Source: Candidatus Omnitrophota bacterium (GTDB lineage Bacteria > Omnitrophota > Gorgyraeia > Duberdicusellales > 4484-171). From it: 56,430 nt of DNA. Positions 13,424-35,546 of the stretch are shown in pieces. The notes below the pieces were generated by a model that saw nothing but the letters and a program-made list of their open reading frames with translations, searched no databases and was not told the DNA's origin. The stretch lies in the NCBI GenBank assembly GCA_023134705.1, contig JAGLUN010000011.1, positions 1 to 56,430 on the forward strand, given 5' to 3'. Both the position numbers and the translations under genes were made by a program. Positions within the stretch are counted from its first letter, which is position 1. Every line of letters starts with the position of its first letter.

Positions 13424-14149
13424 ATGGCTCCTATAAAAAAACTGATTCAAAAGACTTCCTCAATATTTCTAAAAAACAAACTCTGGAATCTAACAACCAC
13501 TCCGGAATATAATTACGACAAAAGATTCCTATATAGGCTTCAAATAATTGATAATATTTTGCTCAATAAAGCTTATGGGGATGTGATAGAAATTGGCTGC
13601 GGAGATGGACGGTTTCTTAGTAAATTAGAATCCATTAAAGGAATAAACTCTGCATGGGGAATCAATATATCCATAAAGGGAATAAAAACGGCCCGAAAAA
13701 AAGGACTAAATGTAATAAGAGCTGATGGCGAACGGCTGCCTTTTAAGGATGAAACTTTCGATACAGTAATGAGCGCGAATGGCGCTCCCGTAGCAATGAA
13801 ATGGGAATTGTTATTACCAGAAGTTTACAGAATTCTCAAACCAGGCGGGTATTTCGCTTTTCATACTTACAACAAATTCCCTATAGAAAAAATAATTAAG
13901 AATAAAATAATGTGTTTCTTGAAAATTGCTAATGCCCCATTTTTGATTAACGGTGGAGTTAAAAACATAAAAAAATTTAAAGCTATCTGTTTAAAATTCG
14001 GCTTCGAAGTTATTTCACTGCATACTCTTCTCCCTCTCCCATTTTTCCCTTACGGGATATTATTGAAAGGAAGTTCCTTCAGCCAAATTCATGTGAATCT
14101 TATTGGAATCCTTAGAAAAAAACAGGCCAAAACTAAGTCACCGCAATAA
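13424..14149 (+). CDS. Class I SAM-dependent methyltransferase
   Basis: VIEIGCGDGRF (motif I), followed by FDTVMS and LKPGGYF motifs. Confidence 0.75.
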   Translation: MAPIKKLIQKTSSIFLKNKLWNLTTTPEYNYDKRFLYRLQIIDNILLNKAYGDVIEIGCGDGRFLSKLESIKGINSAWGINISIKGIKTARKKGLNVIRADGERLPFKDETFDTVMSANGAPVAMKWELLLPEVYRILKPGGYFAFHTYNKFPIEKIIKNKIMCFLKIANAPFLINGGVKNIKKFKAICLKFGFEVISLHTLLPLPFFPYGILLKGSSFSQIHVNLIGILRKKQAKTKSPQ

Positions 14150-14629
14150 AAATATCCAGAAGAACTTATCAAAAAGATTGGCCAACCTATCTATTTTTTC
14201 TCCCGGAAAGATACTTTTTCTTATTAAATATATAAACAAGTAGCTGTAATTTATAATTTTTATATTTCTACACTTTGGCTTCTGCCATTTCTCCTTATTT
14301 ACCTTTTGTCCCTTATTATCAGATACCGCTGTTACTTTACCGATCAAATCTTTGCCTTCAAACATTCCTCCTACCAAAGCATTGTCACCTTTATGCAAAA
14401 AATACGTTTTATTCAAAAATTTCATTCTTCCAACAATTCTATGGCAAGTAAGAATGTTTTGACCAAAGCCGACAATATCTCCGATTTCTACATCATTTTC
14501 AGTTACCGGCTGCATTTTCACCATCCATCCGTGTTTAAGCACTGGATACATACTTATCCCCGAAATAACTTCCCAGCCTCCTTTGGCCGTCAAATAAAAA
14601 TTATACATCTCATTCTTTTTGTCCATCAT
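14138..14629 (-). CDS. S24/S26-family serine peptidase-like protein (signal-peptidase I / SipW-like)
   Basis: GISMYPVL (Ser nucleophile motif), IGDIVGF, CHRIVG and KGDN boxes. It overlaps the upstream rSAM/SPASM gene by 20 nt. A paralog lies at 39666-40175. Confidence 0.6.
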   Translation of the reverse strand: MMDKKNEMYNFYLTAKGGWEVISGISMYPVLKHGWMVKMQPVTENDVEIGDIVGFGQNILTCHRIVGRMKFLNKTYFLHKGDNALVGGMFEGKDLIGKVTAVSDNKGQKVNKEKWQKPKCRNIKIINYSYLFIYLIRKSIFPGEKIDRLANLFDKFFWIFLLR

Positions 14630-15737
14630 TCACCTCAGAATAAATTTCTTTTCTAATCTTTGCCAAACGACAGGCCTCAGGCAATTTTGACAGAAATGAA
14701 CCTTGCTCTAAACGGGCAATTCCCGGACAATAAAAACAATAAGAAAGTAATTCACATTTTCTGCATTCAGATAAATCTTTTACCCGCAAAGATCTAATAT
14801 AATTAAGCTCTGGATGATATTGCCAGACATCCGATAAATTATGCCCATTTAAACAATTCTTTTTTAATCTAATTTGCGCGCAGGGATTTAATTCTCCAGA
14901 AGGAGTAATATTACAACCTGATCGCCCCGCTCCGCATAATATGTCGTTCTTCTTTACTTTTCCTGGTTTATATTCTTTTCCCACAGATCTAAACTCTTCC
15001 TTTTCTTCTTTAATATATTTCTTTAACTGTTCATCAGTCAATCTGTATTGTAAAGGTCTTTTGTTTCCGTCATCACAAGGAGAAACTAAAAAATTACCCC
15101 CGATCCCCCTCCATTTTACACCCAGTTCTTTCTTTACAAATCTCTTCAATTTCCAGACTTGGCTTACATTTTGTTTTGTTAATGTCATTTTAACTAAGAC
15201 TTCGACATTCCTTTCTCTTAATAACCTGATCGCCTTAACAGTTTTATCAAATGAATTTTTGACCCGAGTCATTTCCTCATGCATATCCTTAAATCCGCAT
15301 AAACTTATTTCGACAGAAATTGGCTTTAAATTTCCAAGTTTATCAGCAATGCTTTCATTTACAAGAGTCGCGTTTGTAAATATTCGCAAAGCAAATTTTA
15401 ATTTTCGCGCGTAATCAGCAATCTCAAAAAAATCTTTCCTTATCAAAGGTTCTCCTCCGGAAAATGTTAGATAAAAGCAGCCCGCTTCTTTTAATTGACG
15501 GAGGATACCAAAAACCTTCTCTTTCTCTAATTCTTTCTTTTTATTTTTAGTAATATAGCAGTATAAGCAATTCAAATTACATCTATAGGTAAGTTCAAAA
15601 AGACAATGCAGGGGGATCAATTTTTCAGCAGCGTTTTTAAGCAGATAAGTCTGGAGGTCAGCTTGCTTCATTTTTGCGGATTTTTTGGAGAATATAGATA
15701 TCTCAGAATTTAAGAAAAATGATGGAGGTGTAACCAC
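14610..15737 (-). CDS. Radical SAM/SPASM-domain peptide maturase (locus I)
   Basis: ELTYRCNLNCLYCY (CxxxCxxC), FSGGEPL, and a C-terminal SPASM pattern CGAGRSGCNITPSGELNPC...CRKCELLSYCFYCPG. The GTG at 15737 is probably too far upstream. ATG 15671 (MKQADL) would remove the overlap with the 46-aa ORF. Confidence 0.85.
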   Translation of the reverse strand: MVTPPSFFLNSEISIFSKKSAKMKQADLQTYLLKNAAEKLIPLHCLFELTYRCNLNCLYCYITKNKKKELEKEKVFGILRQLKEAGCFYLTFSGGEPLIRKDFFEIADYARKLKFALRIFTNATLVNESIADKLGNLKPISVEISLCGFKDMHEEMTRVKNSFDKTVKAIRLLRERNVEVLVKMTLTKQNVSQVWKLKRFVKKELGVKWRGIGGNFLVSPCDDGNKRPLQYRLTDEQLKKYIKEEKEEFRSVGKEYKPGKVKKNDILCGAGRSGCNITPSGELNPCAQIRLKKNCLNGHNLSDVWQYHPELNYIRSLRVKDLSECRKCELLSYCFYCPGIARLEQGSFLSKLPEACRLAKIRKEIYSEVNDGQKE

Positions 15738-15850
15738 CCACAGCCGCCACCTGTTTTATAACAAGCCACCATCCCTTTTCGTTCTTTTACTACTTCTTCT
15801 TTGAATTTTGGATCAATCCATTTCTTTCTCTTATTTCGCGCCTTTTTCAC
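15710..15850 (-). CDS. Candidate RiPP precursor peptide (46 aa, below the ORF-track cutoff)
   Basis: GTG start 8 nt after AAGGAG. Translation: MKKARNKRKKWIDPKFKEEVVKERKGMVACYKTGGGCGWLHLHHFS. It lies between the PqqD-like gene and the rSAM/SPASM gene. It has a basic N-terminus, a Cys/Gly-rich C-terminus and a C-terminal Ser like the other precursors here. Confidence 0.45.
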   Translation of the reverse strand: MKKARNKRKKWIDPKFKEEVVKERKGMVACYKTGGGCGWLHLHHFS

Positions 15851-15878: not shown

Positions 15879-16175
15879 CTATGCAACCGTATATGTTATT
15901 AAACCCTTCTTTTCAAATTTATTCATCAACTTTGTGATTTTTTTACAAACATCCTCTTCTGAAACTTCATATTCACTTAAAAGCTTATCAATTACATCTT
16001 TTACCTTATTTTTTCCATCAATTAATTCCCAAATCATAGCTGCTGTTTCATTCAAAATCAATATTTTCTCTCTTTCGTCAGGAGCACCATCAAACTGTAA
16101 GATTACAACCTCCCTGTCTATCCGCCGCCAAGCAAGGTCTTCATTACTCTTAGGAATTTTGTTTAAATCTTTCAT
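15879..16175 (-). CDS. PqqD-family protein (RiPP recognition element)
   Basis: 98 aa. W.RIDREVVIL....ILILNETAAMIWELIDGKNKVKDVIDKLLSEYEV..EDV is the typical PqqD pattern. Confidence 0.8.
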   Translation of the reverse strand: MKDLNKIPKSNEDLAWRRIDREVVILQFDGAPDEREKILILNETAAMIWELIDGKNKVKDVIDKLLSEYEVSEEDVCKKITKLMNKFEKKGLITYTVA

Positions 16176-17067
16176 CTAAATACCCCCATATATCTAAATC
16201 CGGCCTAAATTCCAAAATATACGCATCTATATTATTTCCTGCGTCAAAAGCTATTTCAAACACTTTTTTAAAAGTCTTTTTATCTTCGTCTAAGTACATA
16301 CTATCTTCTAAAATTCGCAAAGCCATCTCTTTCTTATTCATTTTTCTGCCATAATTCCTATTAGCTTTCTTTAAGAAAAACACCTCCTTAACTTCTCCAA
16401 ATTCCGGAGAGGTCTGCGGCATTTTCCCATGCCAAGGATTACCAAAAACGATATATTTATCCTTAACTTTTCTTAAAATTATTCTTTCATCATTAAGAAC
16501 CGCGAAATTCTTTAAAAGCGCGAGTTTAGCCATCGTAGATTTACCTCCTCCCGATGGAGCGATACATACAAAAATCCTTTTATTTATCTTTATTGCCGAA
16601 GCGTGAAGAAAAATCCCTTTAAACTGCGGAAGGAGTAAAGTGTATAATAGGTCGGAGGACAAATGCGTAAAAACCTCTCGCCAATGCTCTTTACTCCAAA
16701 GCTTTATCTTTGAAAAATCGGAAGAGAATTCCATCAAAGAGTTTCTTGTGTGAAAAAAATGCAAATATCTCTTATTATTTCTTTCTCCATAATCCCATGC
16801 GTCTGTCTTTAAAAAAAAATTAACCTTAGAGGCTATCTGAGGATATTTTGATTTTACCTCTAGCAGAACTTCATAGTTATTATTTAACGGAATAATGAAA
16901 TCTTTATAATAATTTTGAAGGTTCTCTTTTATTCTTGAATCGTCTAAAACCCATTTTATTTTTAATTTCCCTAAATTTGTGATAAACGCGCTATTTTTTT
17001 TAAAACTACTCACTTTTTTTCCTGTCTGTCTTAAGACAAACTTCCGCCCTTTTGTTTTTTCTCCCAT
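16150..17067 (-). CDS. HPr-kinase-related P-loop kinase-like protein
   Basis: LHASAI...FVCIAPSGGGKSTMAKLAL P-loop, LNDERIILRK and GNPWHG. These match the 29097-30062 and 53949-54884 paralogs. Confidence 0.7.
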   Translation of the reverse strand: MGEKTKGRKFVLRQTGKKVSSFKKNSAFITNLGKLKIKWVLDDSRIKENLQNYYKDFIIPLNNNYEVLLEVKSKYPQIASKVNFFLKTDAWDYGERNNKRYLHFFHTRNSLMEFSSDFSKIKLWSKEHWREVFTHLSSDLLYTLLLPQFKGIFLHASAIKINKRIFVCIAPSGGGKSTMAKLALLKNFAVLNDERIILRKVKDKYIVFGNPWHGKMPQTSPEFGEVKEVFFLKKANRNYGRKMNKKEMALRILEDSMYLDEDKKTFKKVFEIAFDAGNNIDAYILEFRPDLDIWGYLDERFKQNS

Positions 17068-17156
17068 ATCGTTCTCTGTCTTATAGGCCTATAGAACAAT
17101 TGTTTTATAGTTTCTTATTTGCAATATATCACTTCCCAAAAAAATGTCAAAGGCAT

Positions 17157-18023
17157 TTAAATGGGGGGCTCGGGTTGATAAACTAATCGATCAATTCTCT
17201 TCTTAACTAATTCGCGCTTACCAGGAACTTTTCTATTTTCAAAAAACAACGTATTGCCCTTTTGGTATATTATGACTGGCATATTTTTGTTTCTCAATTC
17301 AAGGATATATTTTTTGCATTCTTTTTTACAAAAGGAAATGCCGCAAAAAAATCTTTTTTTCGCACGAAAAGGATTTGCTGAACAAAGACGAGTAGTAGTA
17401 ATATATCCATAAGGCACATATAAAGATACAGATAAGCTATGTTTGGGAATTCTAAGATTCATCCCTTGAAATAAATTATCTATTTCAACCCTCGAGATTC
17501 GATAACTTTTCAAAAAATTCCGGATAATAGGAACATTTATATTTGCCTCTTTGAAAAACGAAAGTAAGGTACCAGGACTTTTTTGTGGGAAAACAAAAAC
17601 ATATTCGTTACGCTTCTTGAAAAATGTGGTTCTTTGGGGCTTTGCCTGCATTAAATCCATTATCCGTGGATCCCTTTTTTGTTTAGTTAACAAGCGCCCT
17701 AAAACAGGTTGTAGCGTGTGATACTCCTCGTTTATTAAATCCAATATTCCATAGTCATTAATTATGATTTCACAATTTATCTTATTATTCCGCAACCACA
17801 AAAATAACTTCTCCAAATTCTCTATCCCCCTGCGTGTCACATAAGGCGTTACCAATGAAAAACTTAATTTATTTCTATCACAATAGCTCACAATTTTTCT
17901 TAATTCATTTAGTCGTGGGATTAATCTTTCGCAAAATTCACTCCCAAAATATAAACGCTTATATTTTGAAGTAACCAACTTTAAATTTGAGATATCAGCG
18001 ATAAATATAGCTTTTTCTATCAT
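17157..18023 (-). CDS. U32-family protein, UbiV-like
   Basis: YFGSEFCERLIP resembles the UbiV YLGE.VC.KR motif. A C-terminal Cys cluster, RLCSANPFRAKKRFFCGISFCKKEC, could bind 4Fe-4S. A 4-nt overlap with the upstream U32 gene suggests a pair. Confidence 0.6.
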   Translation of the reverse strand: MIEKAIFIADISNLKLVTSKYKRLYFGSEFCERLIPRLNELRKIVSYCDRNKLSFSLVTPYVTRRGIENLEKLFLWLRNNKINCEIIINDYGILDLINEEYHTLQPVLGRLLTKQKRDPRIMDLMQAKPQRTTFFKKRNEYVFVFPQKSPGTLLSFFKEANINVPIIRNFLKSYRISRVEIDNLFQGMNLRIPKHSLSVSLYVPYGYITTTRLCSANPFRAKKRFFCGISFCKKECKKYILELRNKNMPVIIYQKGNTLFFENRKVPGKRELVKKRIDRLVYQPEPPI

Positions 18024-19078
18024 TTATGTAATGTTTTATGGAAAACTGAGGGATAATAACAGGAAAAGCCAGAACATTTATCATATTTATAAGTGTCACA
18101 GTATAGCTTTTGAGTTTTTTTTATAAACTTTTCTTTTGTAGAATTATCTTCTTTCTTTAGAATATCTAAAACTGCTCGAATAAACTTTGTATCTCTGATT
18201 TTAGATTCTATTTTCGCGCCTCTCTCAACAATTTTAAGTCCTCTAATATTCATTTTATTGAAATCGAATATAGCGCAGGCGCCGCATTCTTTCCGATTTT
18301 CTCTATCATGTTTTATTTTTTTAGTGCCGGACGGGGTTTGTCTTGTTATTCTTTTGCCTCGATTATCGAATATCCTTTTTGAATACCTTAAGACACAAGC
18401 GCATCCTCCATGACTTCCAGCATAAAATTTGGTGAATTTTATCTTTTTATTTTTGAGATCGATTTCCGGAGCAATCGCCTTTTTGTCAAAAGACATTCCA
18501 TGGTAAAAGGTGCAAAACCCATCGACATTCGGACATAATGTATTAAGGATAAAAACCTCCAGATGTACCTTACCCGAAATTCTTCGTGAAATATCCTCAA
18601 TTTCGTTTATTGTTAAATGACGCGGCAAAATTATACGAGAAGCGCCAAATTTTTTGTAGAAAATAGCTGTTTTTGAATTAAAGGTTGTTCCTCCAGCCCC
18701 TATATGGATTTCTTTAAAAATTTTCATCCTTTGTAACATCAGCAATAAACCTATATCCGCTATAATGAGGCCATCCGCTTTTACGTCCTTCAGTTTCTTA
18801 ATTATCTTTCGAATTAAAGGGTATTGCTGCTGCACGTATAATCCATTCATTGTCACAAACACCCGTACATTTTCTCTATGCGCAAGTTGTATCGCATATT
18901 GCAAATCTGAAAATTTGGAAAAATTAGCGGCATAACCTTCCCTTCTGTTGAGCGTATCAAACGCACTATACCTATTCTCCCATTCTTCAGGTATAATCCC
19001 GCAATAAAGCTCATCTGCTCCTGCCTCTATGAGAGGCATCACTTCTTCCTTCTTTGAAAATGGGGATAGGATTTTCAT
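18020..19078 (-). CDS. U32-family protein, UbiU-like
   Basis: The MKILSPF...IEAGADELYCG N-terminus, VFVTMN, ADGLIIADIGLL, LKIVERGAK and Cys motifs CPNVDGFC / GGCAC / CGAC are typical of peptidase-U32 family members. Confidence 0.7.
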   Translation of the reverse strand: MKILSPFSKKEEVMPLIEAGADELYCGIIPEEWENRYSAFDTLNRREGYAANFSKFSDLQYAIQLAHRENVRVFVTMNGLYVQQQYPLIRKIIKKLKDVKADGLIIADIGLLLMLQRMKIFKEIHIGAGGTTFNSKTAIFYKKFGASRIILPRHLTINEIEDISRRISGKVHLEVFILNTLCPNVDGFCTFYHGMSFDKKAIAPEIDLKNKKIKFTKFYAGSHGGCACVLRYSKRIFDNRGKRITRQTPSGTKKIKHDRENRKECGACAIFDFNKMNIRGLKIVERGAKIESKIRDTKFIRAVLDILKKEDNSTKEKFIKKTQKLYCDTYKYDKCSGFSCYYPSVFHKTLHK

Positions 19079-19093
19079 AATTAAAAAATTCCG

Positions 19094-19738
19094 TTACCTT
19101 TTTGACATCAATACCAAAATACGATTTCCGAAATAAAATTTATTTTTTATTTTAAAGCCGCCGGAAAAAATGTTAATGATTTGACGAAAATTAAAACCCC
19201 ATACGGGGAATTGTTGACGCGAGGGATCTCTTTCCGCCGTTCTTCCGGTTAGATTTATATCTTCATAAAATAAAGGGCGCCGGGCGGGATAATCCCCCGG
19301 GCGGAAAAATTCCCGTATAATATAGAATCCCTTGGGTTTTAATACTCTTGATATTTCACTCTTGACATATTTGCGTTTTTTTATTGGTATGCAATGAAAC
19401 AAACCAAAATCTACTATAAAATCAAAATAGTTTTTCGCATATGGTAAATTTGCGGCATCTGCAACAACAAAAGAAACAGATGGGATTCTCTTTTTCGCGG
19501 CAGCAACCGCTTTTCTTGATATATCGAACCCATATACCTTAAATCCTTTTTCATTTAAAAAAATTGTATTTTTTCCAGTCCCGCATCCGGCATCTAACAC
19601 TTTGAGCTTAGGCTGAAGACACAACCGTTCAATAATGTAAATCAAATCTAGATCAATCTTCTTATATCCCCAAGGGGCTTTCTTAATACCTCTATTATAG
19701 ATTTTATTGAATAAATTATCGCTTTTATTCACAATCAA
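19094..19738 (-). CDS. Class I SAM-dependent methyltransferase
   Basis: VLDAGCGTGKNTIFL (motif I) and LKPKGFYII. TTG start preceded by AGAGGGA. Confidence 0.75.
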   Translation of the reverse strand: MIVNKSDNLFNKIYNRGIKKAPWGYKKIDLDLIYIIERLCLQPKLKVLDAGCGTGKNTIFLNEKGFKVYGFDISRKAVAAAKKRIPSVSFVVADAANLPYAKNYFDFIVDFGLFHCIPIKKRKYVKSEISRVLKPKGFYIIREFFRPGDYPARRPLFYEDINLTGRTAERDPSRQQFPVWGFNFRQIINIFSGGFKIKNKFYFGNRILVLMSKR

Positions 19739-20030: not shown

Positions 20031-21275
20031 TCAAGAATAGGTTGTTTTCTTTTCTCTCTTGACCCCAGAAATCTTATCATCCCCCTCATAGCAACGGTAG
20101 CTTAGCTTTTCCTTTATATACTTTGCGGGAATATATATACACCGGAATCTATAAAATAAATATGTTTTTCTATCATAAGACTTAATCCCATAGAACTTGG
20201 CAAACTGTTCGATAGGAATATTTAAAATGTACTCTACGGGTTCTCGAAAATTATCATATAAAAGAAAATGGCTCTTTAGGTATAAATCGCGTATTTTCTC
20301 TTTTATATCCGGCAGAAACGTATTTTTCTCTATAAATTGACAGATTAGCTTTCTTTTGTAAAAAGGAATCGCCAAATTTTTTAGAATATCTTTGGATATA
20401 CTAAGACCGAAAAAAAAATTTGCCTGAGATAAAATAAAGAATACCGTTGTACGCATGTTCCCGCTTTTCGCCTCTTTTAAAACATAGTCCCAGTCAAAAT
20501 TGCTGTATTTCTTTAACAACAAAAATAAATCAAAAACACTTTTCATGCATAGAACTTTCCCTAACCTGCGGTTATGCAGTGCTAAACTAAAAAATGTATC
20601 TTCACAAGAAAGCGAATACATGCTCCGGTTATCTATATCAACTCTTCTCAATCGACTCCACAACAGGGGGAGAATATCTTTCTTCCTTTTATAATCCAAT
20701 CGCCAATGCAGCTCAACTATAGCAGAAAGTCTTGAATGATTTCTCTTTAAAAAAATTATATGATATTGTTTCTCTCTCCAATAATTTTCTTTTAACCCTG
20801 CTGATTCTCTTTCATAACCCAAATTGTATAAAATTTCTTCGGCTTTTAAAATATCCTTGTTCTTTACCAAGAGATCAATATCGCCTATGTTTCTCAACGA
20901 AGGATTAGAGTAAATATCTTTAAATAATGCCATTCCTTTTACAGGGATTAAAACAATATCTTTCTGTCCGAAAATTTCTATCAATCTTAAAAACTCTCCC
21001 CATAAACATTCGTTTCTTAAAGTACCGTAGTAATATTTGTTTTTTAAAAATCGCCTGAAATCCCGAGGCAATAGATCAAAGTATTCTTTCAATACTGAAT
21101 AGCCAAGGGAAACAATCTCATGATAAATCATACAATTTTTAACTTTTTCCCAATCAAGTCCCTTTAAATTAAGTAATTTTTCGATATTGTCCCTTTCTCC
21201 GCCGGAACATATCTCTCTTACTATTGACAAAATAAATTCTCTTTCAATATTCATATCTAAATATCCATACCCCAT
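20031..21275 (-). CDS. Uncharacterised nucleotidyltransferase-family protein (NTP_transf_5-like), paralog 1
   Basis: IPVKGMALFKDIYSNPSLRNIGDIDLLVKNKDILKAEEILYNLGY and ELHWRLD. Paralogs lie at 40713-42005 and 47144-48352. The real start is probably MNIERE (21254). Confidence 0.7.
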   Translation of the reverse strand: MGYGYLDMNIEREFILSIVREICSGGERDNIEKLLNLKGLDWEKVKNCMIYHEIVSLGYSVLKEYFDLLPRDFRRFLKNKYYYGTLRNECLWGEFLRLIEIFGQKDIVLIPVKGMALFKDIYSNPSLRNIGDIDLLVKNKDILKAEEILYNLGYERESAGLKENYWREKQYHIIFLKRNHSRLSAIVELHWRLDYKRKKDILPLLWSRLRRVDIDNRSMYSLSCEDTFFSLALHNRRLGKVLCMKSVFDLFLLLKKYSNFDWDYVLKEAKSGNMRTTVFFILSQANFFFGLSISKDILKNLAIPFYKRKLICQFIEKNTFLPDIKEKIRDLYLKSHFLLYDNFREPVEYILNIPIEQFAKFYGIKSYDRKTYLFYRFRCIYIPAKYIKEKLSYRCYEGDDKISGVKREKKTTYS

Positions 21276-22722
21276 CCATTTTTTGAGAATAGCTTAATTT
21301 GAAATTCTCATCTAACCAACCCTTGACTGCGGATGAATTCTCATCTAAATTCCCATCTCTTGCCCAATTAGAAGCTATAATCCATAACCTTTTAAAATTG
21401 AGGCTGTTTATTCTGTGAAAAGGAATGCGATATTTACTCGCTCTTACAGGCCTCCCCCAAGATGAATCAGAAATTTCTGGATCAAAAAAGTAGTAAAAAC
21501 CTCTTTTTTCTGAATAATACTTAAATGGTACTGCTACACAGGGATTTGTAAATGCCACTAAATCTTCTTTCTTGCGATTACGATTAATGAATTGAACTAT
21601 AGGCCTGACAGGTTTTTTTATATAAGTTCCCATGTGGTGATCAAGAACGGTTGGCATCCAGTCCTTAAAATAGGCGTAATCAGAGGTAAAAAGTAAAAAT
21701 AAGAAAAGAACGAACATTGGCAATTTTAAGTATTTCCCTAATGAGACTATTCCTAAAGACAGGATTAAATAAAAATAAGGGCTAAAAATTATAAAGGTAC
21801 GGTCAAGATAAACTGAAAATAATATTTTAGAAAAAATAAAAATTGAAACTATCGGTATTAAAAATAGGAATAAACAAAAAATTAGATTAAACCTCAATCC
21901 TCTATCGCGTAAATTAATCATTGCCCGGATAAAAAATATTGTTGCTAAAATACCGGCGGCAAGATATAGGAAAGAATTAACGTTATATCCTAGAATAAAA
22001 GTTTCTATAGTTATAATTATTGACTTAAAACTAGGGCAAGGAATCCAAAACCCTCCCCAGACATAAAAAAATTTACTTAAAAAACGCTCAAGATAAGGCA
22101 AGAAACATAATCCTATAATTAAAAAAGGAATCATATTTTTAAGATTTAATTTTAATTTTTTAAAAAATACAAAGATGTATAAAATTTGCGCAATAAAAAG
22201 AAAAATAAAAAAATAATTTGTATATATCCCTAAGACGGAGCTTAAAATAAAAACCAGCCAAAATTTAGCTTTTCCTCTTTTTATCGCCTTAAAAAGAAAA
22301 TAAGAAGAAAGTAACCCCAGAAATAGAATTAAGCTATAATCCCTTGCTTCTTGAGCATACCAGAGATGAAACGGACTAACCCCCATAATTAAAGCCGCAC
22401 ATATACCAACTCTTTTATTGAATAAATCTCTTCCCAAAAAGAAAATCAAAATTACGGATAGAAAGCTAAAAATTAGTGAAGGAAAGCGCAGGCTAAATTC
22501 TGAAATGCCGAACAGTTTTATCCAGGAATGAAGCAGTATCCAGTAAAACGGCGCGTTCCAATTAGACCAAGGATGTTTAGCATAACTAATCGTAAAAATT
22601 TCATCATACCAAAAGTCATGGTAACCTAATTTATACAATCTCAGAAGAAATAAAATGGTAAAGAAAAGAATAAATAAACCTCTTCTTATTGAACAAAAAT
22701 TCCTTATTTGAAATCTTTTCAT
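21244..22722 (-). CDS. GT-C fold glycosyltransferase (ArnT / PMT family-39-like), paralog 1
   Basis: 492 aa and polytopic. YDEIFT, FGISEFSLRFPSLIFS and SPFHLWYAQEARDYS are typical of the dolichyl/undecaprenyl-phosphate-sugar-dependent GT39/83 class. Confidence 0.75.
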   Translation of the reverse strand: MKRFQIRNFCSIRRGLFILFFTILFLLRLYKLGYHDFWYDEIFTISYAKHPWSNWNAPFYWILLHSWIKLFGISEFSLRFPSLIFSFLSVILIFFLGRDLFNKRVGICAALIMGVSPFHLWYAQEARDYSLILFLGLLSSYFLFKAIKRGKAKFWLVFILSSVLGIYTNYFFIFLFIAQILYIFVFFKKLKLNLKNMIPFLIIGLCFLPYLERFLSKFFYVWGGFWIPCPSFKSIIITIETFILGYNVNSFLYLAAGILATIFFIRAMINLRDRGLRFNLIFCLFLFLIPIVSIFIFSKILFSVYLDRTFIIFSPYFYLILSLGIVSLGKYLKLPMFVLFLFLLFTSDYAYFKDWMPTVLDHHMGTYIKKPVRPIVQFINRNRKKEDLVAFTNPCVAVPFKYYSEKRGFYYFFDPEISDSSWGRPVRASKYRIPFHRINSLNFKRLWIIASNWARDGNLDENSSAVKGWLDENFKLSYSQKMDGVWIFRYEY

Positions 22723-23405
22723 TGAATTATTGAAGTGGATATAAAGACTCTTAAGAATTTGAAACTATCTTTAAAAATTGAAAAGTGAGATCTACCAAAT
22801 CTTCTCTCTTCCCACACGGTAGGAATTTCTGCGATCTTATATCCATAAAAATACGCTTTCAAAACTACCTCCATAGAAATTTCAAAACCCTTGCTTTTTA
22901 TCTTTATATTTTCGAAAATAGTTTTTCTATAAGCTTTAAAAGGATTGGTTGAATCTAAAGTAGGTATTTTTGTTATTGCATGAATTAGGCAGTTAAAATA
23001 TCTCGAAAGGATAGTTTTTAAGAAAAAACTGTTCTTTCTTTTTCCCCTTCTCATATATCGTGAAGCGCAAATAATATCACACCCCATGGATATCCCTTTA
23101 CACATCCTGGGTATAATATCAATTTCATCAGATCCATCGCTCATCACAGGAACAATGATATCACCTTTTGCCATATTTATACCAATCTCCAAGGATTCAG
23201 CAAACCCCTTTCTGTATTTGTTGACGATGATTTTAAATTCAGGAAAAGGTAGCGATAGTTTCTCCATGATTTCAAAACTACCGTCAGAGGAGTTATCGTC
23301 AATTACGATTACTTCATAATCCTCCTTGAACTTCCCCTGCAAATTAAACAAGATTTGCTCTATACTTTCTTTCTCATTATGCACAGGGATTATAATGCTT
23401 ATCAT
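22719..23405 (-). CDS. GT2 glycosyltransferase (polyprenyl-phosphate sugar synthase-like; ArnC/GtrB/DPM1 type), paralog 1
   Basis: MISIIIPVHNE...VIVIDDNSSDGS...DGSDE (DxD region). 4-nt overlap with the downstream GT-C gene. Confidence 0.8.
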   Translation of the reverse strand: MISIIIPVHNEKESIEQILFNLQGKFKEDYEVIVIDDNSSDGSFEIMEKLSLPFPEFKIIVNKYRKGFAESLEIGINMAKGDIIVPVMSDGSDEIDIIPRMCKGISMGCDIICASRYMRRGKRKNSFFLKTILSRYFNCLIHAITKIPTLDSTNPFKAYRKTIFENIKIKSKGFEISMEVVLKAYFYGYKIAEIPTVWEERRFGRSHFSIFKDSFKFLRVFISTSIIQ

Positions 23406-28753: not shown

Positions 28754-29017
28754 TTAGGAGGCTGTTAGGTTTGGTAGCGGGTTCCAAGAGGGAAGAATTT
28801 TGGCTGGGCCATACCCATTCAGCACCTTCGTCCCATGCTGATCATAACCACAAATACGTCCGAGCTCCGGGCTCGTACCCACCCAGTACCTCCATGCTAC
28901 GTGTGATTGGCTTTGGAACACCCTGCCCGTGCTCCAGCAGTTACACGATAACACCGCCTGCTCAGGGTTGAGTTTTACCCGCGTAATCTTGGGTCTGAAT
29001 TTTGGTTTTCTTCCCAT
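28754..29017 (-). CDS. Precursor peptide P1 (87 aa): conserved leader, hypervariable core
   Basis: SD GGGAGGT lies 8 nt before ATG 29017 (the track ORF starts 9 codons earlier). Translation: MGRKPKFRPKITRVKLNPEQAVLSCNCWSTGRVF...NLTAS. The leader is shared with P2 and P3. Confidence 0.7.
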   Translation of the reverse strand: MGRKPKFRPKITRVKLNPEQAVLSCNCWSTGRVFQSQSHVAWRYWVGTSPELGRICGYDQHGTKVLNGYGPAKILPSWNPLPNLTAS

Positions 29018-29037
29018 AATTTGATACCTCCCTTCTT

Positions 29038-29135
29038 GTATCACGTATCAAGTATCAAGTATCAAGTATCAAGTATCAGGTATCACGTTTTACCTGTTAC
29101 TTGTTACCTGCGGCGTGTTGCGCATTCGCGCTTAC
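29038..29135. repeat. Heptanucleotide tandem-repeat array (GTATCAN x7, then degenerate NTGTTAC-type heptamers)
   Basis: Read directly: gtatcac, gtatcaa x4, gtatcag, gtatcac, gttttac, ctgttac, ttgttac, ctgcggc, gtgttgc, gcattcg, cgcttac. The array spans the HprK-like stop and encodes its last ~11 codons. Confidence 0.9.
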
Positions 29136-30062
29136 TCTTCTCACAAAATCAATAACTTTTCTATCATTCACAAACCCCAGGCTATAACAGGGCACAGTTT
29201 TAACCAAATCCTGGCAAAAGGAAATTATATTTTCTAAACATCCTTTATCCCAGAAGGTAGGAAAGAGCGCCGGATAAAGTAGATTGAATGCCCTCTTTCG
29301 CGAAATCTGTCTTATTGTATTTTTAGGCGAATGATGGATAAAAAATAATTTTTCAAGCCGCGCCGATTCGATATGCGACTCTAAATAATCACTAAAATCT
29401 CCATGCCATGGCGCGCCGTAGATAAAGAATTTTTTTTTAAGTTTTCGCACAATAATGCGGTCATCATTCAAAACCATTGCTTTGCTGTGTTTATGCCAGA
29501 GCCTTGCCGTAGTGCTTTTACCTGCCCCGGATTTACCGGCAAAAAGTAATCCCTTGCCGTTTAAATCCTTCACTCCGATAGAATGAGTAAAAATACCTTG
29601 TTTATTCAAAGCAAAATAATTTATCAATAGAACCTGCAAAAAGTCATAGATGATATCCGAAGTATTCCATACCTTTCCTTTTTGTTTTTTTGGCAGAAGA
29701 TAAGCGGTTACCCGGTCAAAAGCCTTGTTTACCAGCATCGCTTGTTTTTTATCCTCAAGCGGGCTTTTGTAAACATAGCTCTTGCCTCTCTTAAGCAAGC
29801 GCCAGTTCTCACTTCCATCCTGAAAGTGATAGGTAATAAATACCGGCTTTGTTTTTTTGATTTCGGGTAATTTATCAACTATCTCTACATTAACTAAAAT
29901 ATGCGGAGTTTGCCTGCCTTTATAAAAAAAATTATCAAATCGTTCGCCCGCCTGCGCTCTTTCTTCTTCTTTAGTAAACTGCTCAAGAGGAAAGCGGCTT
30001 TTCATCTGAATAATTGTATCAGCAATCCTTAATTTAACTACCACATTATTACCTTGCTTCAT
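29097..30062 (-). CDS. HPr-kinase-related P-loop kinase-like protein (locus II)
   Basis: LLFAGKSGAGKSTTARL P-loop, LNDDRIIVRK and GAPWHGDF. ATG 30062 (MKQGNNVVVKL) is preceded by AAGGAG and matches the start of the pseudogene copy. The track start at 30167 is likely too long. Confidence 0.75.
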   Translation of the reverse strand: MKQGNNVVVKLRIADTIIQMKSRFPLEQFTKEEERAQAGERFDNFFYKGRQTPHILVNVEIVDKLPEIKKTKPVFITYHFQDGSENWRLLKRGKSYVYKSPLEDKKQAMLVNKAFDRVTAYLLPKKQKGKVWNTSDIIYDFLQVLLINYFALNKQGIFTHSIGVKDLNGKGLLFAGKSGAGKSTTARLWHKHSKAMVLNDDRIIVRKLKKKFFIYGAPWHGDFSDYLESHIESARLEKLFFIHHSPKNTIRQISRKRAFNLLYPALFPTFWDKGCLENIISFCQDLVKTVPCYSLGFVNDRKVIDFVRRVSANAQHAAGNK

Positions 30063-30196
30063 TGCTTCTCCTTTTAAATTAGTTGCCTTCGGCAATAATT
30101 TATCATATGAAAACCTGCGGTTTTCAAACTTTCCCCTAAAATCCTTAAGATTGAAATTCCTAAACATGAACTTAGTGCGCCTAACGGCGCGGGCTT

Positions 30197-30597: not shown

Positions 30598-30852
30598 TTA
30601 GGAGGATGACTGGCTACCACTGAGGTTATAACCGCGGTAATGCCTGTATGGTCCAATCCATTTTAGCTGTAGCTTACCCATGCACTGTGCCTGGGGTCCA
30701 GGCGTGGTTTGTCGTAGCCATCCAGTATCGCGACTGCTGCCTAGCCAGATTGGTTTCGTACCTCCTTGGTAACAGTCGCAGGTTAACACCGCCTGCTCAG
30801 GGTTGAGTTTTACCCGCGTAATCTTGGGCTTGAATTTTGGTTTTCTTCCCAT
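30598..30852 (-). CDS. Precursor peptide P2 (84 aa): same leader as P1, unrelated core
   Basis: SD GGGAGGT precedes ATG 30852. Translation: MGRKPKFKPKITRVKLNPEQAVLTCDCYQGGTKPIW...GSQSSS. Confidence 0.7.
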   Translation of the reverse strand: MGRKPKFKPKITRVKLNPEQAVLTCDCYQGGTKPIWLGSSRDTGWLRQTTPGPQAQCMGKLQLKWIGPYRHYRGYNLSGSQSSS

Positions 30853-30872
30853 AATTTGATACCTCCCTTCTT

Positions 30873-30956
30873 GTATCAAGTATCAAGTATCAGGTATCAG
30901 GTATCAGGTTTTACCTGTTACGTGTTACCTGCGACGTGTTGCTCATTCGCGCTTAC
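30873..30956. repeat. Heptanucleotide tandem-repeat array, second copy with different unit counts
   Basis: gtatcaa x2, gtatcag x3, gttttac, ctgttac, gtgttac, ctgcgac, gtgttgc, tcattcg, cgcttac. Confidence 0.9.
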
Positions 30957-35310: not shown

Positions 35311-35427
35311 CTATATAAGCCTCCCCTGTACCCAGCCTGTGTCATAGCATGAACAGAACAACACCGCCTGCTTAGGGTTGAGTCGGATCCATGTTATCCT
35401 TGGTCTGAATTTTGGTTTTCTTCCCAT
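35311..35427 (-). CDS. Precursor paralog P3 (38 aa; probably decayed)
   Basis: SD GGAGGTG lies 7 nt before ATG 35427. Translation: MGRKPKFRPRITWIRLNPKQAVLFCSCYDTGWVQGRLI, then TAG. The frame stays open beyond the TAG. The conserved 3' block is mutated (cct cct gag instead of tcc tcc taa), so the terminal Ser and stop are lost. Confidence 0.45.
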   Translation of the reverse strand: MGRKPKFRPRITWIRLNPKQAVLFCSCYDTGWVQGRLI

Positions 35428-35546
35428 AATTTAGCACCTCCGCTCTTTTGCCTAGCGCGTATTACCTATTGCAACGTGTAGCATGCTGCGTGCAGCAGTT
35501 TATTTTACCCTTTTCCTTATTAAACTGCCTCATTGATAAATTGCCC

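What the first reader, a model, noticed from the sequence alone, without database searches (positions are those of the whole stretch)
17157..19078. A UbiU/UbiV-like U32 pair embedded in a RiPP-type locus
Two translationally coupled U32-family genes, each with a Cys cluster, sit between a methyltransferase and the kinase-like gene. Characterised U32 members (UbiU-UbiV, TrhP, RlhA) are 4Fe-4S enzymes that carry out O2-independent hydroxylation of ubiquinone precursors, tRNA or rRNA, rather than acting as proteases. In this context they could hydroxylate a peptide anaerobically, and the neighbouring methyltransferases could then O-methylate the product. I am not aware of U32 enzymes being assigned to RiPP tailoring.
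Basis: inference. Interest (0 to 1): 0.6.

Follow-up and report, generated by a model that had tools for sequence, protein, structure and literature searches.

The report
UbiU/UbiV-like iron-sulfur pair in peptide cluster
Two overlapping genes related to the oxygen-free ubiquinone hydroxylase UbiU/UbiV, together with a dedicated methyltransferase, sit as an optional add-on inside a radical-SAM peptide-modification cluster of an uncultured Omnitrophota bacterium, which suggests (untested) that this enzyme family can hydroxylate ribosomal peptides without oxygen.

Summary
The two genes exist as described: minus strand, ATGA overlap, between a methyltransferase and an HprK-like gene. The 352-aa protein is a clear U32/UbiU relative with 8 invariant Cys. 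The 288-aa protein matches no domain library. It models as a TIM barrel nearest the solved U32 protein and CutC, and its 4 invariant Cys follow the UbiV layout, so it is "UbiV-like" by fold, layout and partnership, not by sequence statistics.

The pair is not housekeeping. It was found in 27 of 400 Omnitrophota genomes, this genome has a separate canonical U32 gene, and no SCP2 (UbiT-type) domain was found.

In Omnitrophota the pair lies in radical-SAM-rich clusters, several times next to precursors of one conserved-leader family that this window also encodes. The same cassette occurs without the pair, so it is an optional tailoring module. In other phyla the family sits among flavoprotein/ETF genes instead.

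New here: the partner subunit is fused elsewhere to class I methyltransferases closely related to the adjacent MT1, and to glycosyltransferases. This fits "install a hydroxyl, then cap it".

Substrate and chemistry remain inferred. I found no paper linking U32 to RiPPs. Earlier notes of this scan describe the same kind of pair on other DNA.

The parts
18020..19078 (-). U32A: UbiU-like U32 Fe-S subunit, 352 aa, 8 invariant Cys
   Evidence: PF01136 at 1.1e-30. hhalign of its family to E. coli UbiU gives probability 99.4, with C182, C189 and C228 aligned to UbiU C169, C176 and C232. Invariant Cys from alignment A2.
17157..18023 (-). U32B: UbiV-like partner subunit, 288 aa, TIM barrel, 4 invariant Cys (C31, C214, C232, C236); member of a family no domain library recognises
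   Evidence: No Pfam or NCBIfam hit. 1468 representative clusters at E<=0.001. AF2 model pLDDT 92.9. Top Foldseek hit 5d88, a U32 peptidase. Cys register with UbiV. ATGA overlap with U32A.
19094..19738 (-). MT1: class I SAM methyltransferase, 15 nt upstream of U32A; probable capping enzyme of the module
   Evidence: Methyltransf_25/11 and TPMT hits. 32-42% identity and about 100 bits to the methyltransferase domains fused to U32B in P0197, P0210 and P0269. The best methyltransferase in 400 Omnitrophota genomes scores only 69 bits.
20031..23405 (-). NTP_transf_5, PMT_2 (GT-C) and GT2 genes upstream on the same strand; possibly the same transcription unit as MT1-U32A-U32B
   Evidence: Pfam hits. 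NTP_transf_5 closes the conserved cassette in relatives.
17123..17150 (-). Best sigma-70-like site of the region (11 of 12 matches, with extended -10 TG), between the U32B stop and the HprK-like start
   Evidence: This is a consensus match only; the total number of sites in the region is not above the shuffled controls.
16150..17067 (-). HprK-like kinase-fold gene (locus I)
   Evidence: Weak HprK-related and ScmC hits.
15879..16175 (-). PqqD-family peptide chaperone (RRE)
   Evidence: PF05402 at 1.1e-15.
15713..15850 (-). Candidate 46-aa precursor: GTG start 8 nt after AAGGAG, basic leader, aromatic/His-rich C-terminus ending in Ser
   Evidence: Sequence read. No homologue found in the fetched loci. 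In the 5.8-billion protein set it retrieved only its own 46-aa record from this contig.
14610..15737 (-). Radical SAM/SPASM maturase; its true start is probably the internal ATG near 15671, because the listed ORF overlaps the 46-aa ORF
   Evidence: Pfam and NCBIfam hits. ORF overlap seen.
14138..14629 (-). Signal-peptidase-I-like gene, candidate leader peptidase
   Evidence: TIGR02228 at 2.9e-10.
28757..29044 (-). Precursor of the conserved-leader family (leader motif ...KLNPEQAVLxCxC, C-terminal Ser)
   Evidence: The same family lies next to U32 pairs in L041, L042, L044, L058 and L059.
30601..30879 (-). Second precursor of the same family
29097..30167 (-). HprK-like kinase of the conserved cassette (HprK356)
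   Evidence: Weak Hpr_kinase_C hit. Orthologues at 53-75% identity lie beside U32 pairs in L034, L037 and L044.

Best explanation
MT1, U32A and U32B form an accessory "hydroxylate-and-cap" tailoring module of a radical-SAM peptide (RiPP-type) cluster.

Proposed mechanism:
- U32A (UbiU-like) and U32B (UbiV-like) are made from overlapping genes and probably form a heterodimer. It would carry at least two Fe-S clusters: four Cys in U32B, and eight in U32A, enough for a second metal site.
- By analogy with UbiU-UbiV, TrhP and RlhA, the pair oxidises an aromatic or heteroaromatic ring without O2, taking the oxygen atom from prephenate. Here the ring would be a Tyr, Trp or His side chain of a precursor core. 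Candidates are the conserved-leader precursors at 28757-29044 and 30601-30879, and/or the 46-aa peptide at 15713-15850.
- MT1 then methylates the new hydroxyl. In other lineages a fused glycosyltransferase may glycosylate it instead.

Shown: gene anatomy, family relations, optional distribution, co-location with precursors, and fusions to methyltransferases.

Inferred: the heterodimer, the Fe-S content, prephenate use, the peptide substrate and the hydroxylation itself.
For: - U32A is a clear UbiU relative.
- U32B has a UbiV-type Cys layout and a U32/CutC-like TIM barrel.
- The two genes are tightly coupled. 71 of 108 U32B genes have U32A immediately upstream, and the median gap of 69 such pairs in non-redundant loci is -4 nt.
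- The pair is accessory: 27 of 400 genomes of the phylum.
- Omnitrophota neighbours: 49 of 127 radical SAM, 16 with a B12-binding domain, 3 PqqD. 14 of 20 and 10 of 16 loci hold two or more rSAM genes within about 10 kb. The own genome averages 34 rSAM domains per 1.41 Mb, and 12 of them are in this window.
- Precursors of one conserved-leader family lie beside U32 pairs in L041, L042, L044, L058 and L059 and occur in this window.
- In the phylum sample the leader and U32B share 8 genomes where 1.8 are expected, and 6 of the 8 are co-located within 12 kb.
- The same cassette (PqqD, precursor, 2-3 rSAM/SPASM, HprK-like, ABC, NTP_transf_5) occurs without U32 in at least 7 loci.
- U32B is fused to class I methyltransferases in both orders, and to GT2+GT1. 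MT1 is the specific relative of those fused methyltransferases.
- A chorismate mutase gene is present, so prephenate is available.
- HprK homologues and nucleotidyltransferases are known tailoring enzymes of the C-terminal Ser of lasso peptides (PMC8498205). All precursors here end in Ser.
Against: - No experiment exists. No U32 protein has been shown to act on a peptide, and even for UbiU-UbiV direct hydroxylase activity in vitro is still lacking (PMC10990095).
- U32B shows no significant sequence similarity to UbiV.
- UbiU ligand C193 has no counterpart in U32A.
- The best promoter-like site lies between the pair and the kinase/PqqD/rSAM genes.
- The nearest relatives of this particular pair (L054-L057) have mixed contexts, some sugar- or transport-related and without rSAM.
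- PqqD or an HprK-like gene together with rSAM was detected in only 7 of 20 and 7 of 16 Omnitrophota loci.
- The conserved-leader precursors lie 10-13 kb from the pair here.
- The 46-aa ORF has no homologue.
- The fusion proteins come from metagenome gene calls and could be mis-merged neighbouring genes.
Confidence: 0.48

Rival explanations
1. The pair (with MT1) modifies a non-peptide substrate made or handled by the upstream GT2 / GT-C (PMT_2) / NTP_transf_5 genes. This could be a polyprenyl-linked sugar, a surface glycan, a lipid or a small aromatic metabolite. On this reading its place next to RiPP genes reflects the mosaic build of this accessory island.
For: - The pair shares strand and close spacing with the GT2-PMT_2-NTP_transf_5-MT1 genes, and a strong promoter-like site follows U32B.
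- U32B is fused to GT2+GT1 glycosyltransferases in P0212 and P0268.
- The closest relatives L055, L057 and L064 have glycosyltransferase, amidotransferase or cytidylyltransferase neighbours.
- PMT_2 and GT2 recur near U32 pairs in L046, L050 and L051.
Against: - The window's GT2 shows no specific similarity to the fused glycosyltransferase domains.
- NTP_transf_5 is itself part of the peptide cassette in U32-less loci, and a nucleotidyltransferase is a known lasso-peptide tailoring enzyme.
- Precursor genes directly abut U32 pairs in L058 and L059.
- No quinone context: no SCP2 (UbiT-type) domain was found, and the only UbiA-family gene is on another contig.
Confidence: 0.2
2. The pair acts on the peptide pathway but not as a hydroxylase. 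It could be an Fe-S electron-transfer or redox partner, for example an electron sink or source for the radical SAM/SPASM enzymes. It could also catalyse another two-electron oxidation, such as a dehydrogenation or an oxidative cross-link.
For: - The pair has twelve invariant Cys in all, with up to three metal sites.
- The proposed U32 mechanism needs an unidentified electron acceptor (PMC10990095).
- In other phyla the family sits beside FAD_binding_4, ETF and CCG redox proteins.
- rSAM genes are the commonest neighbours in Omnitrophota.
Against: - The same rSAM cassettes work without the pair in many genomes.
- Fusions are to hydroxyl-capping enzyme types (methyltransferase, glycosyltransferase), not to rSAM or ferredoxin domains.
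- All characterised U32 members are linked to hydroxylation.
Confidence: 0.15
3. The pair is a peptidase, as the historical U32 "collagenase" annotation suggests, and removes the leader peptide.
For: - Source databases name the homologues "U32 family peptidase" or "collagenase-like PrtC".
- A RiPP cluster needs a leader peptidase.
Against: - The invariant Cys sets match the Fe-S ligands of UbiU and UbiV.
- A signal-peptidase-I-like gene is present in the cluster as a peptidase candidate.
- The U32-less cassettes also need leader removal.
Confidence: 0.04
4. The pair is the organism's housekeeping RNA or quinone hydroxylase (an orthologue of UbiUV, TrhP or RlhA) that merely happens to lie here.
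For: U32A's best NCBIfam hits are UbiU and TrhP.
Against: - The scores are far below the equivalog cut-offs: 83.5 against 440, and 70 against 534.
- Distribution is patchy: 27 of 400 genomes.
- A separate canonical 408-aa U32 gene scores 205 bits to TrhP and 263 bits to PF01136.
- No SCP2 (UbiT-type) domain was found in the 91%-complete genome.
Confidence: 0.03

Closest known systems
UbiU-UbiV (E. coli YhbU/YhbV), the O2-independent, prephenate-dependent ubiquinone hydroxylase (PMC6747719, PMC10990095)
   Same: - Two adjacent genes, with the long U32 subunit first and a shorter partner second.
- U32A's family aligns to UbiU over 286 columns (probability 99.4), with three of the four ligand Cys in register.
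- U32B has the UbiV-type layout: one N-terminal Cys plus C-Xn-C-X3-C.
- In ubiquinone synthesis the hydroxylations are followed by methylation. Here a dedicated methyltransferase is adjacent, and elsewhere one is fused to U32B.
   Different: - Not an equivalog: 83.5 bits against a cut-off of 440, and U32B has no hit to the UbiV model.
- UbiU C193 has no counterpart, and U32A has five extra invariant Cys.
- No SCP2 (UbiT-type) domain and no quinone genes nearby.
- The context is radical SAM/PqqD/precursor genes.
TrhP (YegQ) and RlhA (YdcP), single-subunit U32 proteins needed for tRNA ho5U34 and 23S rRNA ho5C2501 (PMC6599085, PMC5727448)
   Same: Same Pfam family, conserved Cys motif, and a link to O2-independent hydroxylation of an aromatic (pyrimidine) ring.
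   Different: - Those are single, longer proteins and housekeeping in distribution.
- This genome has its own such gene on contig C74.
- The pair studied here is two-subunit and accessory.
SynChlorMet (SCM) cassette ScmC/D/E/F and other PqqD + rSAM/SPASM RiPP systems
   Same: HprK-like (ScmC-like), PqqD-like and rSAM/SPASM genes with small precursors. The best NCBIfam hits include ScmC, ScmD, ScmE and ScmF.
   Different: All scores are far below the equivalog cut-offs. I know of no U32 gene in the described SCM cassette (my own knowledge).
Lasso-peptide tailoring by an HPr-kinase homologue and a nucleotidyltransferase (paeninodin, pseudomycoidin; PMC8498205)
   Same: HprK-like and NTP_transf_5 genes accompany precursors that end in Ser.
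   Different: No lasso cyclase or B2 protease is present, and no U32 enzymes are known in those clusters.

Membership tests
Pfam Peptidase_U32 (PF01136) | Match above the gathering score (22.4 bits) | tested here: met
   U32A scores 107.1 bits, E 1.1e-30.
Pfam Peptidase_U32 (PF01136) | The same criterion, applied to the second gene (U32B) | tested here: not met
   No hit for P0002. Only 1 of 46 family members reaches E 0.2. The fold is consistent with U32: top Foldseek hit 5d88, VIA Z 13.4.
UbiU (NCBIfam NF047963 equivalog) | Score at or above the curated cut-off of 440 bits | tested here: not met
   83.5 bits, covering residues 1-191 only.
UbiU | Four [4Fe-4S] ligand Cys: C169, C176, C193, C232 (PMC6747719) | tested here: inconclusive
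   C182, C189 and C228 align to C169, C176 and C232. No Cys aligns to C193. Other invariant Cys (C26, C265, C268) could supply the fourth ligand.
UbiV (NCBIfam NF047965 equivalog) | Significant sequence match to the UbiV model or to E. coli UbiV | tested here: not met
   No NCBIfam hit. BLASTP E 0.56. hhalign E 0.21 and 0.095. HMMER scores about 0-2 bits.
UbiV | Cys layout C-Xn-C-X12-C-X3-C, with the first Cys far upstream (PMC6747719) | tested here: met
   The invariant Cys are C31-Xn-C214-X17-C232-X3-C236. All four fall on UbiV C39, C180, C193 and C197 in the full-length local alignment. The middle spacing differs (17 against 12).
UbiU-UbiV system | Heterodimer with one [4Fe-4S] cluster per subunit | not testable with these tools
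   Support is indirect only: the ATGA overlap and conserved adjacency.
UbiU-UbiV system | Works with UbiT (SCP2 domain) and the quinone pathway | tested here: not met
   No SCP2 domain was found in the 91%-complete genome. The single UbiA-family gene is on another contig.
U32 hydroxylases in general | Prephenate-dependent O2-independent hydroxylation | not testable with these tools
   A chorismate mutase gene is present. The activity itself can only be shown at the bench.
TrhP (NF011996 equivalog) | Score at or above 534 bits | tested here: not met
   70.2 bits.
RiPP biosynthetic cluster (rSAM/SPASM + RRE type) | A precursor peptide gene, a PqqD-like RRE and an rSAM/SPASM maturase in one locus | tested here: met
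   PqqD at 15879-16175, rSAM/SPASM at 14610-15737, and a 46-aa ORF between them. Conserved-leader precursors at 28757-29044 and 30601-30879 are accompanied by three rSAM/SPASM genes. No product is known.
SynChlorMet cassette (TIGR04248-04251) | Equivalog-level matches to ScmC, ScmD, ScmE and ScmF | tested here: not met
   ScmC 15.8 bits against 125, ScmD 28.8 against 100, ScmE 117 against 400, ScmF 74 against 400.

The most novel reading that the evidence does not exclude
U32A/U32B is the first O2-independent, prephenate-dependent hydroxylase of ribosomal peptides. Together with a co-evolved methyltransferase (or, in other lineages, a fused glycosyltransferase) it forms a portable "install a hydroxyl, then cap it" module, which anaerobes plug into radical-SAM peptide cassettes. 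The unannotated U32B family (at least 1468 clusters at 50% identity) would then be the hidden second subunit of a large class of anaerobic hydroxylases with varied substrates.
Probability: 0.33. Interest if true: 0.8.

Novelty: new variant of a known kind. Interest (0 to 1): 0.62.

Why it matters
All known peptide hydroxylations in RiPP pathways that I am aware of use O2-dependent enzymes or radical SAM chemistry. U32 Fe-S proteins are so far tied only to quinone and RNA hydroxylation, and their in vitro activity has not yet been reconstituted.

A U32 pair that tailors a small soluble peptide would extend prephenate-dependent hydroxylation to proteins. It would also explain how strict anaerobes oxygenate natural products. 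A soluble, genetically encoded substrate would be a convenient assay system for a family whose biochemistry is stuck on lipid and RNA substrates.

The work also shows that the partner subunit belongs to a large family that no domain library annotates. Its fusions to methyltransferases and glycosyltransferases give a general clue to its function.

Tried and rejected
Contexts were obtained instead with the genome search, the fetch from genomes and the search for related loci.
- Sequence searches of the PDB with U32A and U32B found nothing relevant.
- Attempts to link U32B to E. coli UbiV by BLASTP, hhalign and HMMER gave no significant score. Only the register of the Cys is suggestive.
- The ESM Atlas gave only unnamed clusters for U32B. 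The first named one is PF01136 at a score of 0.79, which is a lead only.
- The 46-aa ORF has no homologue in 100 fetched loci. In the 5.8-billion protein set it retrieved only its own record. I therefore could not test whether its aromatic/His tail is conserved.
- MT1-like methyltransferases were sought in 400 Omnitrophota genomes. Only generic Rossmann-core matches of 69 bits or less appeared, so MT1 does not co-occur with U32 within the phylum sample.
- The window's GT2 is not specifically related to the glycosyltransferase domains fused to U32B.
- Core composition of precursors in U32-linked versus U32-less loci: only His differs (nominal p 0.025 among five tests, with related sequences). 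I treat this as a lead, not a result.
It was redone from the files.
- The housekeeping and protease readings were considered and rejected for the reasons given under the rival explanations.
Full report
**What is there.** The window is contig C3 of a 1.41-Mb, 91%-complete metagenome-assembled genome. Source names of the closest protein homologues place it in Candidatus Omnitrophota. On the minus strand, ORF 18020-19078 (352 aa, here U32A) ends in an ATGA that also starts ORF 17157-18023 (288 aa, U32B). A class I methyltransferase (MT1, 19094-19738) ends 15 nt before U32A. An HprK-like gene (16150-17067) starts 89 nt after U32B. After it come a PqqD-family gene, a 46-aa ORF, an rSAM/SPASM gene and a signal-peptidase-I-like gene. 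Upstream of MT1 on the same strand lie NTP_transf_5, PMT_2 (GT-C) and GT2 genes and two ABC exporters.

**U32A.** It matches Pfam Peptidase_U32 at 1.1e-30. It is 26% identical to E. coli UbiU over residues 1-190. An alignment of 30 family members aligns to UbiU over 286 columns with hhalign probability 99.4.
- C182, C189 and C228 fall on the UbiU ligands C169, C176 and C232.
- UbiU C193 has no Cys counterpart.
- Five further Cys are invariant: C26, C265, C268, C335 and C340. U32A may therefore bind a second metal centre.
- NCBIfam scores for UbiU (83.5 against 440) and TrhP (70 against 534) exclude orthology.

**U32B.** No Pfam or NCBIfam model sees it or 45 of its 46 sampled relatives. Yet the family is large: 1468 representative clusters at E<=0.001.
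- Sequence comparison with E. coli UbiV is not significant by BLASTP, HMMER or hhalign.
- An AlphaFold2 model (pLDDT 92.9) is a TIM barrel. Its best Foldseek match in the PDB is the U32 peptidase Mk0906 (E 1e-5). With VIA-align, CutC (Z 14.3) and Mk0906 (Z 13.4, 202 residues) stand 1-2 units above other barrels.
- The family has four invariant Cys: C31, C214, C232 and C236. In a permissive full-length hhalign alignment all four coincide with the experimentally defined UbiV ligands C39, C180, C193 and C197 (ligands from PMC6747719).
- I therefore call U32B "UbiV-like" by fold, ligand layout and partnership, not by sequence statistics.

**The pair is a unit.** In 100 fetched loci, 71 of 108 U32B genes have a U32A-family gene immediately upstream on the same strand. 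In 69 such pairs from non-redundant loci the median gap is -4 nt, and 45 overlap or abut.

**Not housekeeping.** U32B was found in 27 of 400 genomes sampled across the phylum. The own genome has a separate, canonical 408-aa U32 gene on contig C74. It scores 263 bits to PF01136, and 205 and 186 bits to the TrhP and UbiU models. No SCP2 (UbiT-type) domain was found. The only UbiA-family gene is on another contig. A chorismate mutase gene is present, so prephenate is available.

**Context in Omnitrophota.**
- Of 127 nearest neighbours of U32 pairs in 19 loci, 49 are radical SAM proteins, 16 carry a B12-binding domain, 3 are PqqD and 4 are methyltransferases.
- At locus level, 14 of 20 and 10 of 16 loci hold two or more rSAM genes within about 10 kb. 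PqqD was detected in 5 of 20 and 5 of 16.
- For scale, the own genome has 34 rSAM domain matches in 1.41 Mb, 12 of them in this 56-kb window.

**A shared precursor family.** Following a lead from earlier notes on this window, I found a precursor family with a nearly invariant leader (...KF.P.ITRIKLNPEQAVL.C.C), a hypervariable core and a C-terminal Ser. It lies directly beside U32 pairs in L041, L042, L044, L058 and L059. It occurs in this window at 28757-29044 and 30601-30879, with a truncated copy at 35344-35430.
- In the 400-genome sample the leader occurs in 27 genomes and U32B in 27. Eight genomes have both, where 1.8 would be expected by chance. In six of the eight the two lie within 12 kb. 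Related genomes are not independent, so this is descriptive only.
- The same cassette (PqqD, precursor, two or three rSAM/SPASM, HprK-like, ABC exporter, NTP_transf_5) is found without any U32 gene in at least seven loci.
- The pair is therefore an optional add-on to a conserved peptide-maturation cassette, which is the behaviour expected of a tailoring enzyme.
- HprK homologues and nucleotidyltransferases are established tailoring enzymes of the C-terminal Ser of lasso peptides (PMC8498205). This fits precursors that all end in Ser.

**Context elsewhere.** The U32B family also occurs in Bathyarchaeia, Chloroflexota, Thermodesulfobacteriota, Planctomycetota, Asgard and DPANN archaea and other groups: 304 stretches in one genome per species. 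There, only 17 of 150 nearest neighbours are rSAM. FAD_binding_4 (14), ETF (9), CCG (6) and MFS (7) are frequent instead. In a tree of 103 U32B sequences, a well-supported clade of 49 rows from those phyla has zero or one rSAM gene nearby. The Omnitrophota and DPANN rows are rSAM-rich. The window's U32B sits in a five-row Omnitrophota clade (L054-L057) with mixed contexts. L054 has rSAM plus PqqD. L056 and L057 have no rSAM gene among the nearest genes; an efflux transporter lies beside the pair in L056 and a sugar-amidotransferase-like gene in L057. The RiPP link is thus lineage-specific, and even here not uniform.

**New functional clue: fusions.** Among the 150 best U32B representatives, five are much longer than the rest.
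- Three carry a class I methyltransferase domain, on either side of U32B (P0197, P0210, P0269).
- Two carry GT2 plus GT1 glycosyltransferase domains (P0212, P0268).
- MT1 of this window is 32-42% identical, over nearly its full length and at about 100 bits, to those fused methyltransferase domains. The shared regions extend beyond the Rossmann core. The best methyltransferase match in 400 Omnitrophota genomes is only 69 bits.
- Methyltransferases and glycosyltransferases both decorate hydroxyl groups, so these fusions fit a U32 enzyme that installs a hydroxyl which is then capped. This mirrors hydroxylation followed by methylation in ubiquinone synthesis.
It says nothing about the substrate.
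- The window's GT2 is not specifically related to the fused glycosyltransferase domains.

**Which substrate?** There are two candidates.
- The 46-aa ORF (15713-15850) lies 1.3 kb downstream of the pair. It has a GTG start 8 nt after AAGGAG and a C-terminus rich in Tyr, Trp, His and Phe that ends in Ser. It has no homologue anywhere I could search.
- The conserved-leader precursors lie 10-13 kb upstream, but members of that family sit beside U32 pairs in other genomes.
- The best sigma-70-like site of the region (11 of 12 matches, with an extended -10) lies between U32B and the HprK-like gene. The pair may therefore end the GT2/GT-C/NTP_transf_5/MT1 unit, which follows the conserved-leader cassette, rather than start the locus with the 46-aa ORF.
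- Cores from U32-linked loci contain more His than cores from U32-less loci (median 0.021 against 0; nominal p 0.025; n 14 against 15; five tests; related sequences). This is a weak lead only.

**Literature and earlier notes.** Full-text searches found no paper that connects U32, UbiU or UbiV with RiPPs or biosynthetic gene clusters. The library is partial. The authors of the prephenate work state that direct hydroxylase activity of U32 proteins has not yet been shown in vitro. They predict further prephenate-dependent hydroxylations in anaerobes (PMC10990095). Earlier AI notes of this scan describe the same kind of U32 pair in peptide cassettes of other genomes. They agree with this reading but are not independent evidence.

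**Verdict.** The most likely reading is an accessory MT1-U32A-U32B module that oxidises, probably hydroxylates, and then methylates a ribosomal peptide without O2. I put this at about one half. Rival readings are a glycan, lipid or small-molecule substrate, and a non-hydroxylating redox role. It is a new variant of a known enzyme kind in a context not described in the literature I could search, and it can be tested directly by anaerobic co-expression and mass spectrometry.

Noticed in passing
window:35344-35430 (-): A third copy of the conserved precursor leader sits in an open frame of only 39 aa, just upstream of the three rSAM/SPASM genes. It looks like a truncated precursor.
   Followed up: no
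L065-L131 (non-Omnitrophota loci): In Chloroflexota, Bathyarchaeia, Thermodesulfobacteriota and others, the same U32A/U32B pair lies beside FAD_binding_4 oxidase, ETF, CCG-domain and MFS genes instead of rSAM genes. This forms a separate, well-supported clade of 49 rows. It may be an anaerobic hydroxylase of a small molecule with its own electron-transfer chain.
   Followed up: partly
P0197, P0210, P0269, P0212, P0268 (representative proteins): U32B is fused to class I methyltransferases in both domain orders, and to GT2+GT1 glycosyltransferases. I could not check on their contigs that these are single open frames.
   Followed up: partly
L057:446-10870 and L058:4161-8081, L059: Some Omnitrophota loci carry two or three U32A/U32B pairs in tandem. 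The paralogous pairs fall in different clades of the U32B tree, which suggests several different modifications on one product.
   Followed up: no
window:14610-15737 (-): The listed rSAM/SPASM ORF starts at a GTG that overlaps the 46-aa ORF by 28 nt. The internal ATG 22 codons downstream (near 15671) is the more plausible start.
   Followed up: no
window:1-56430: Twelve of the genome's 34 radical SAM domain matches lie in this one 56-kb contig, which is about 4% of the assembly.
   Followed up: no
precursor cores in window, L041, L042, L044, L058, L059, L133-L146, L150: The residue right after the leader's C-x-C is aromatic (Tyr, Phe, Trp or His) in 24 of 29 cores, whether or not a U32 pair is present. 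Cores end in Ser in 24 of 29: all 14 U32-linked cores, against 10 of 15 U32-less cores.
   Followed up: partly
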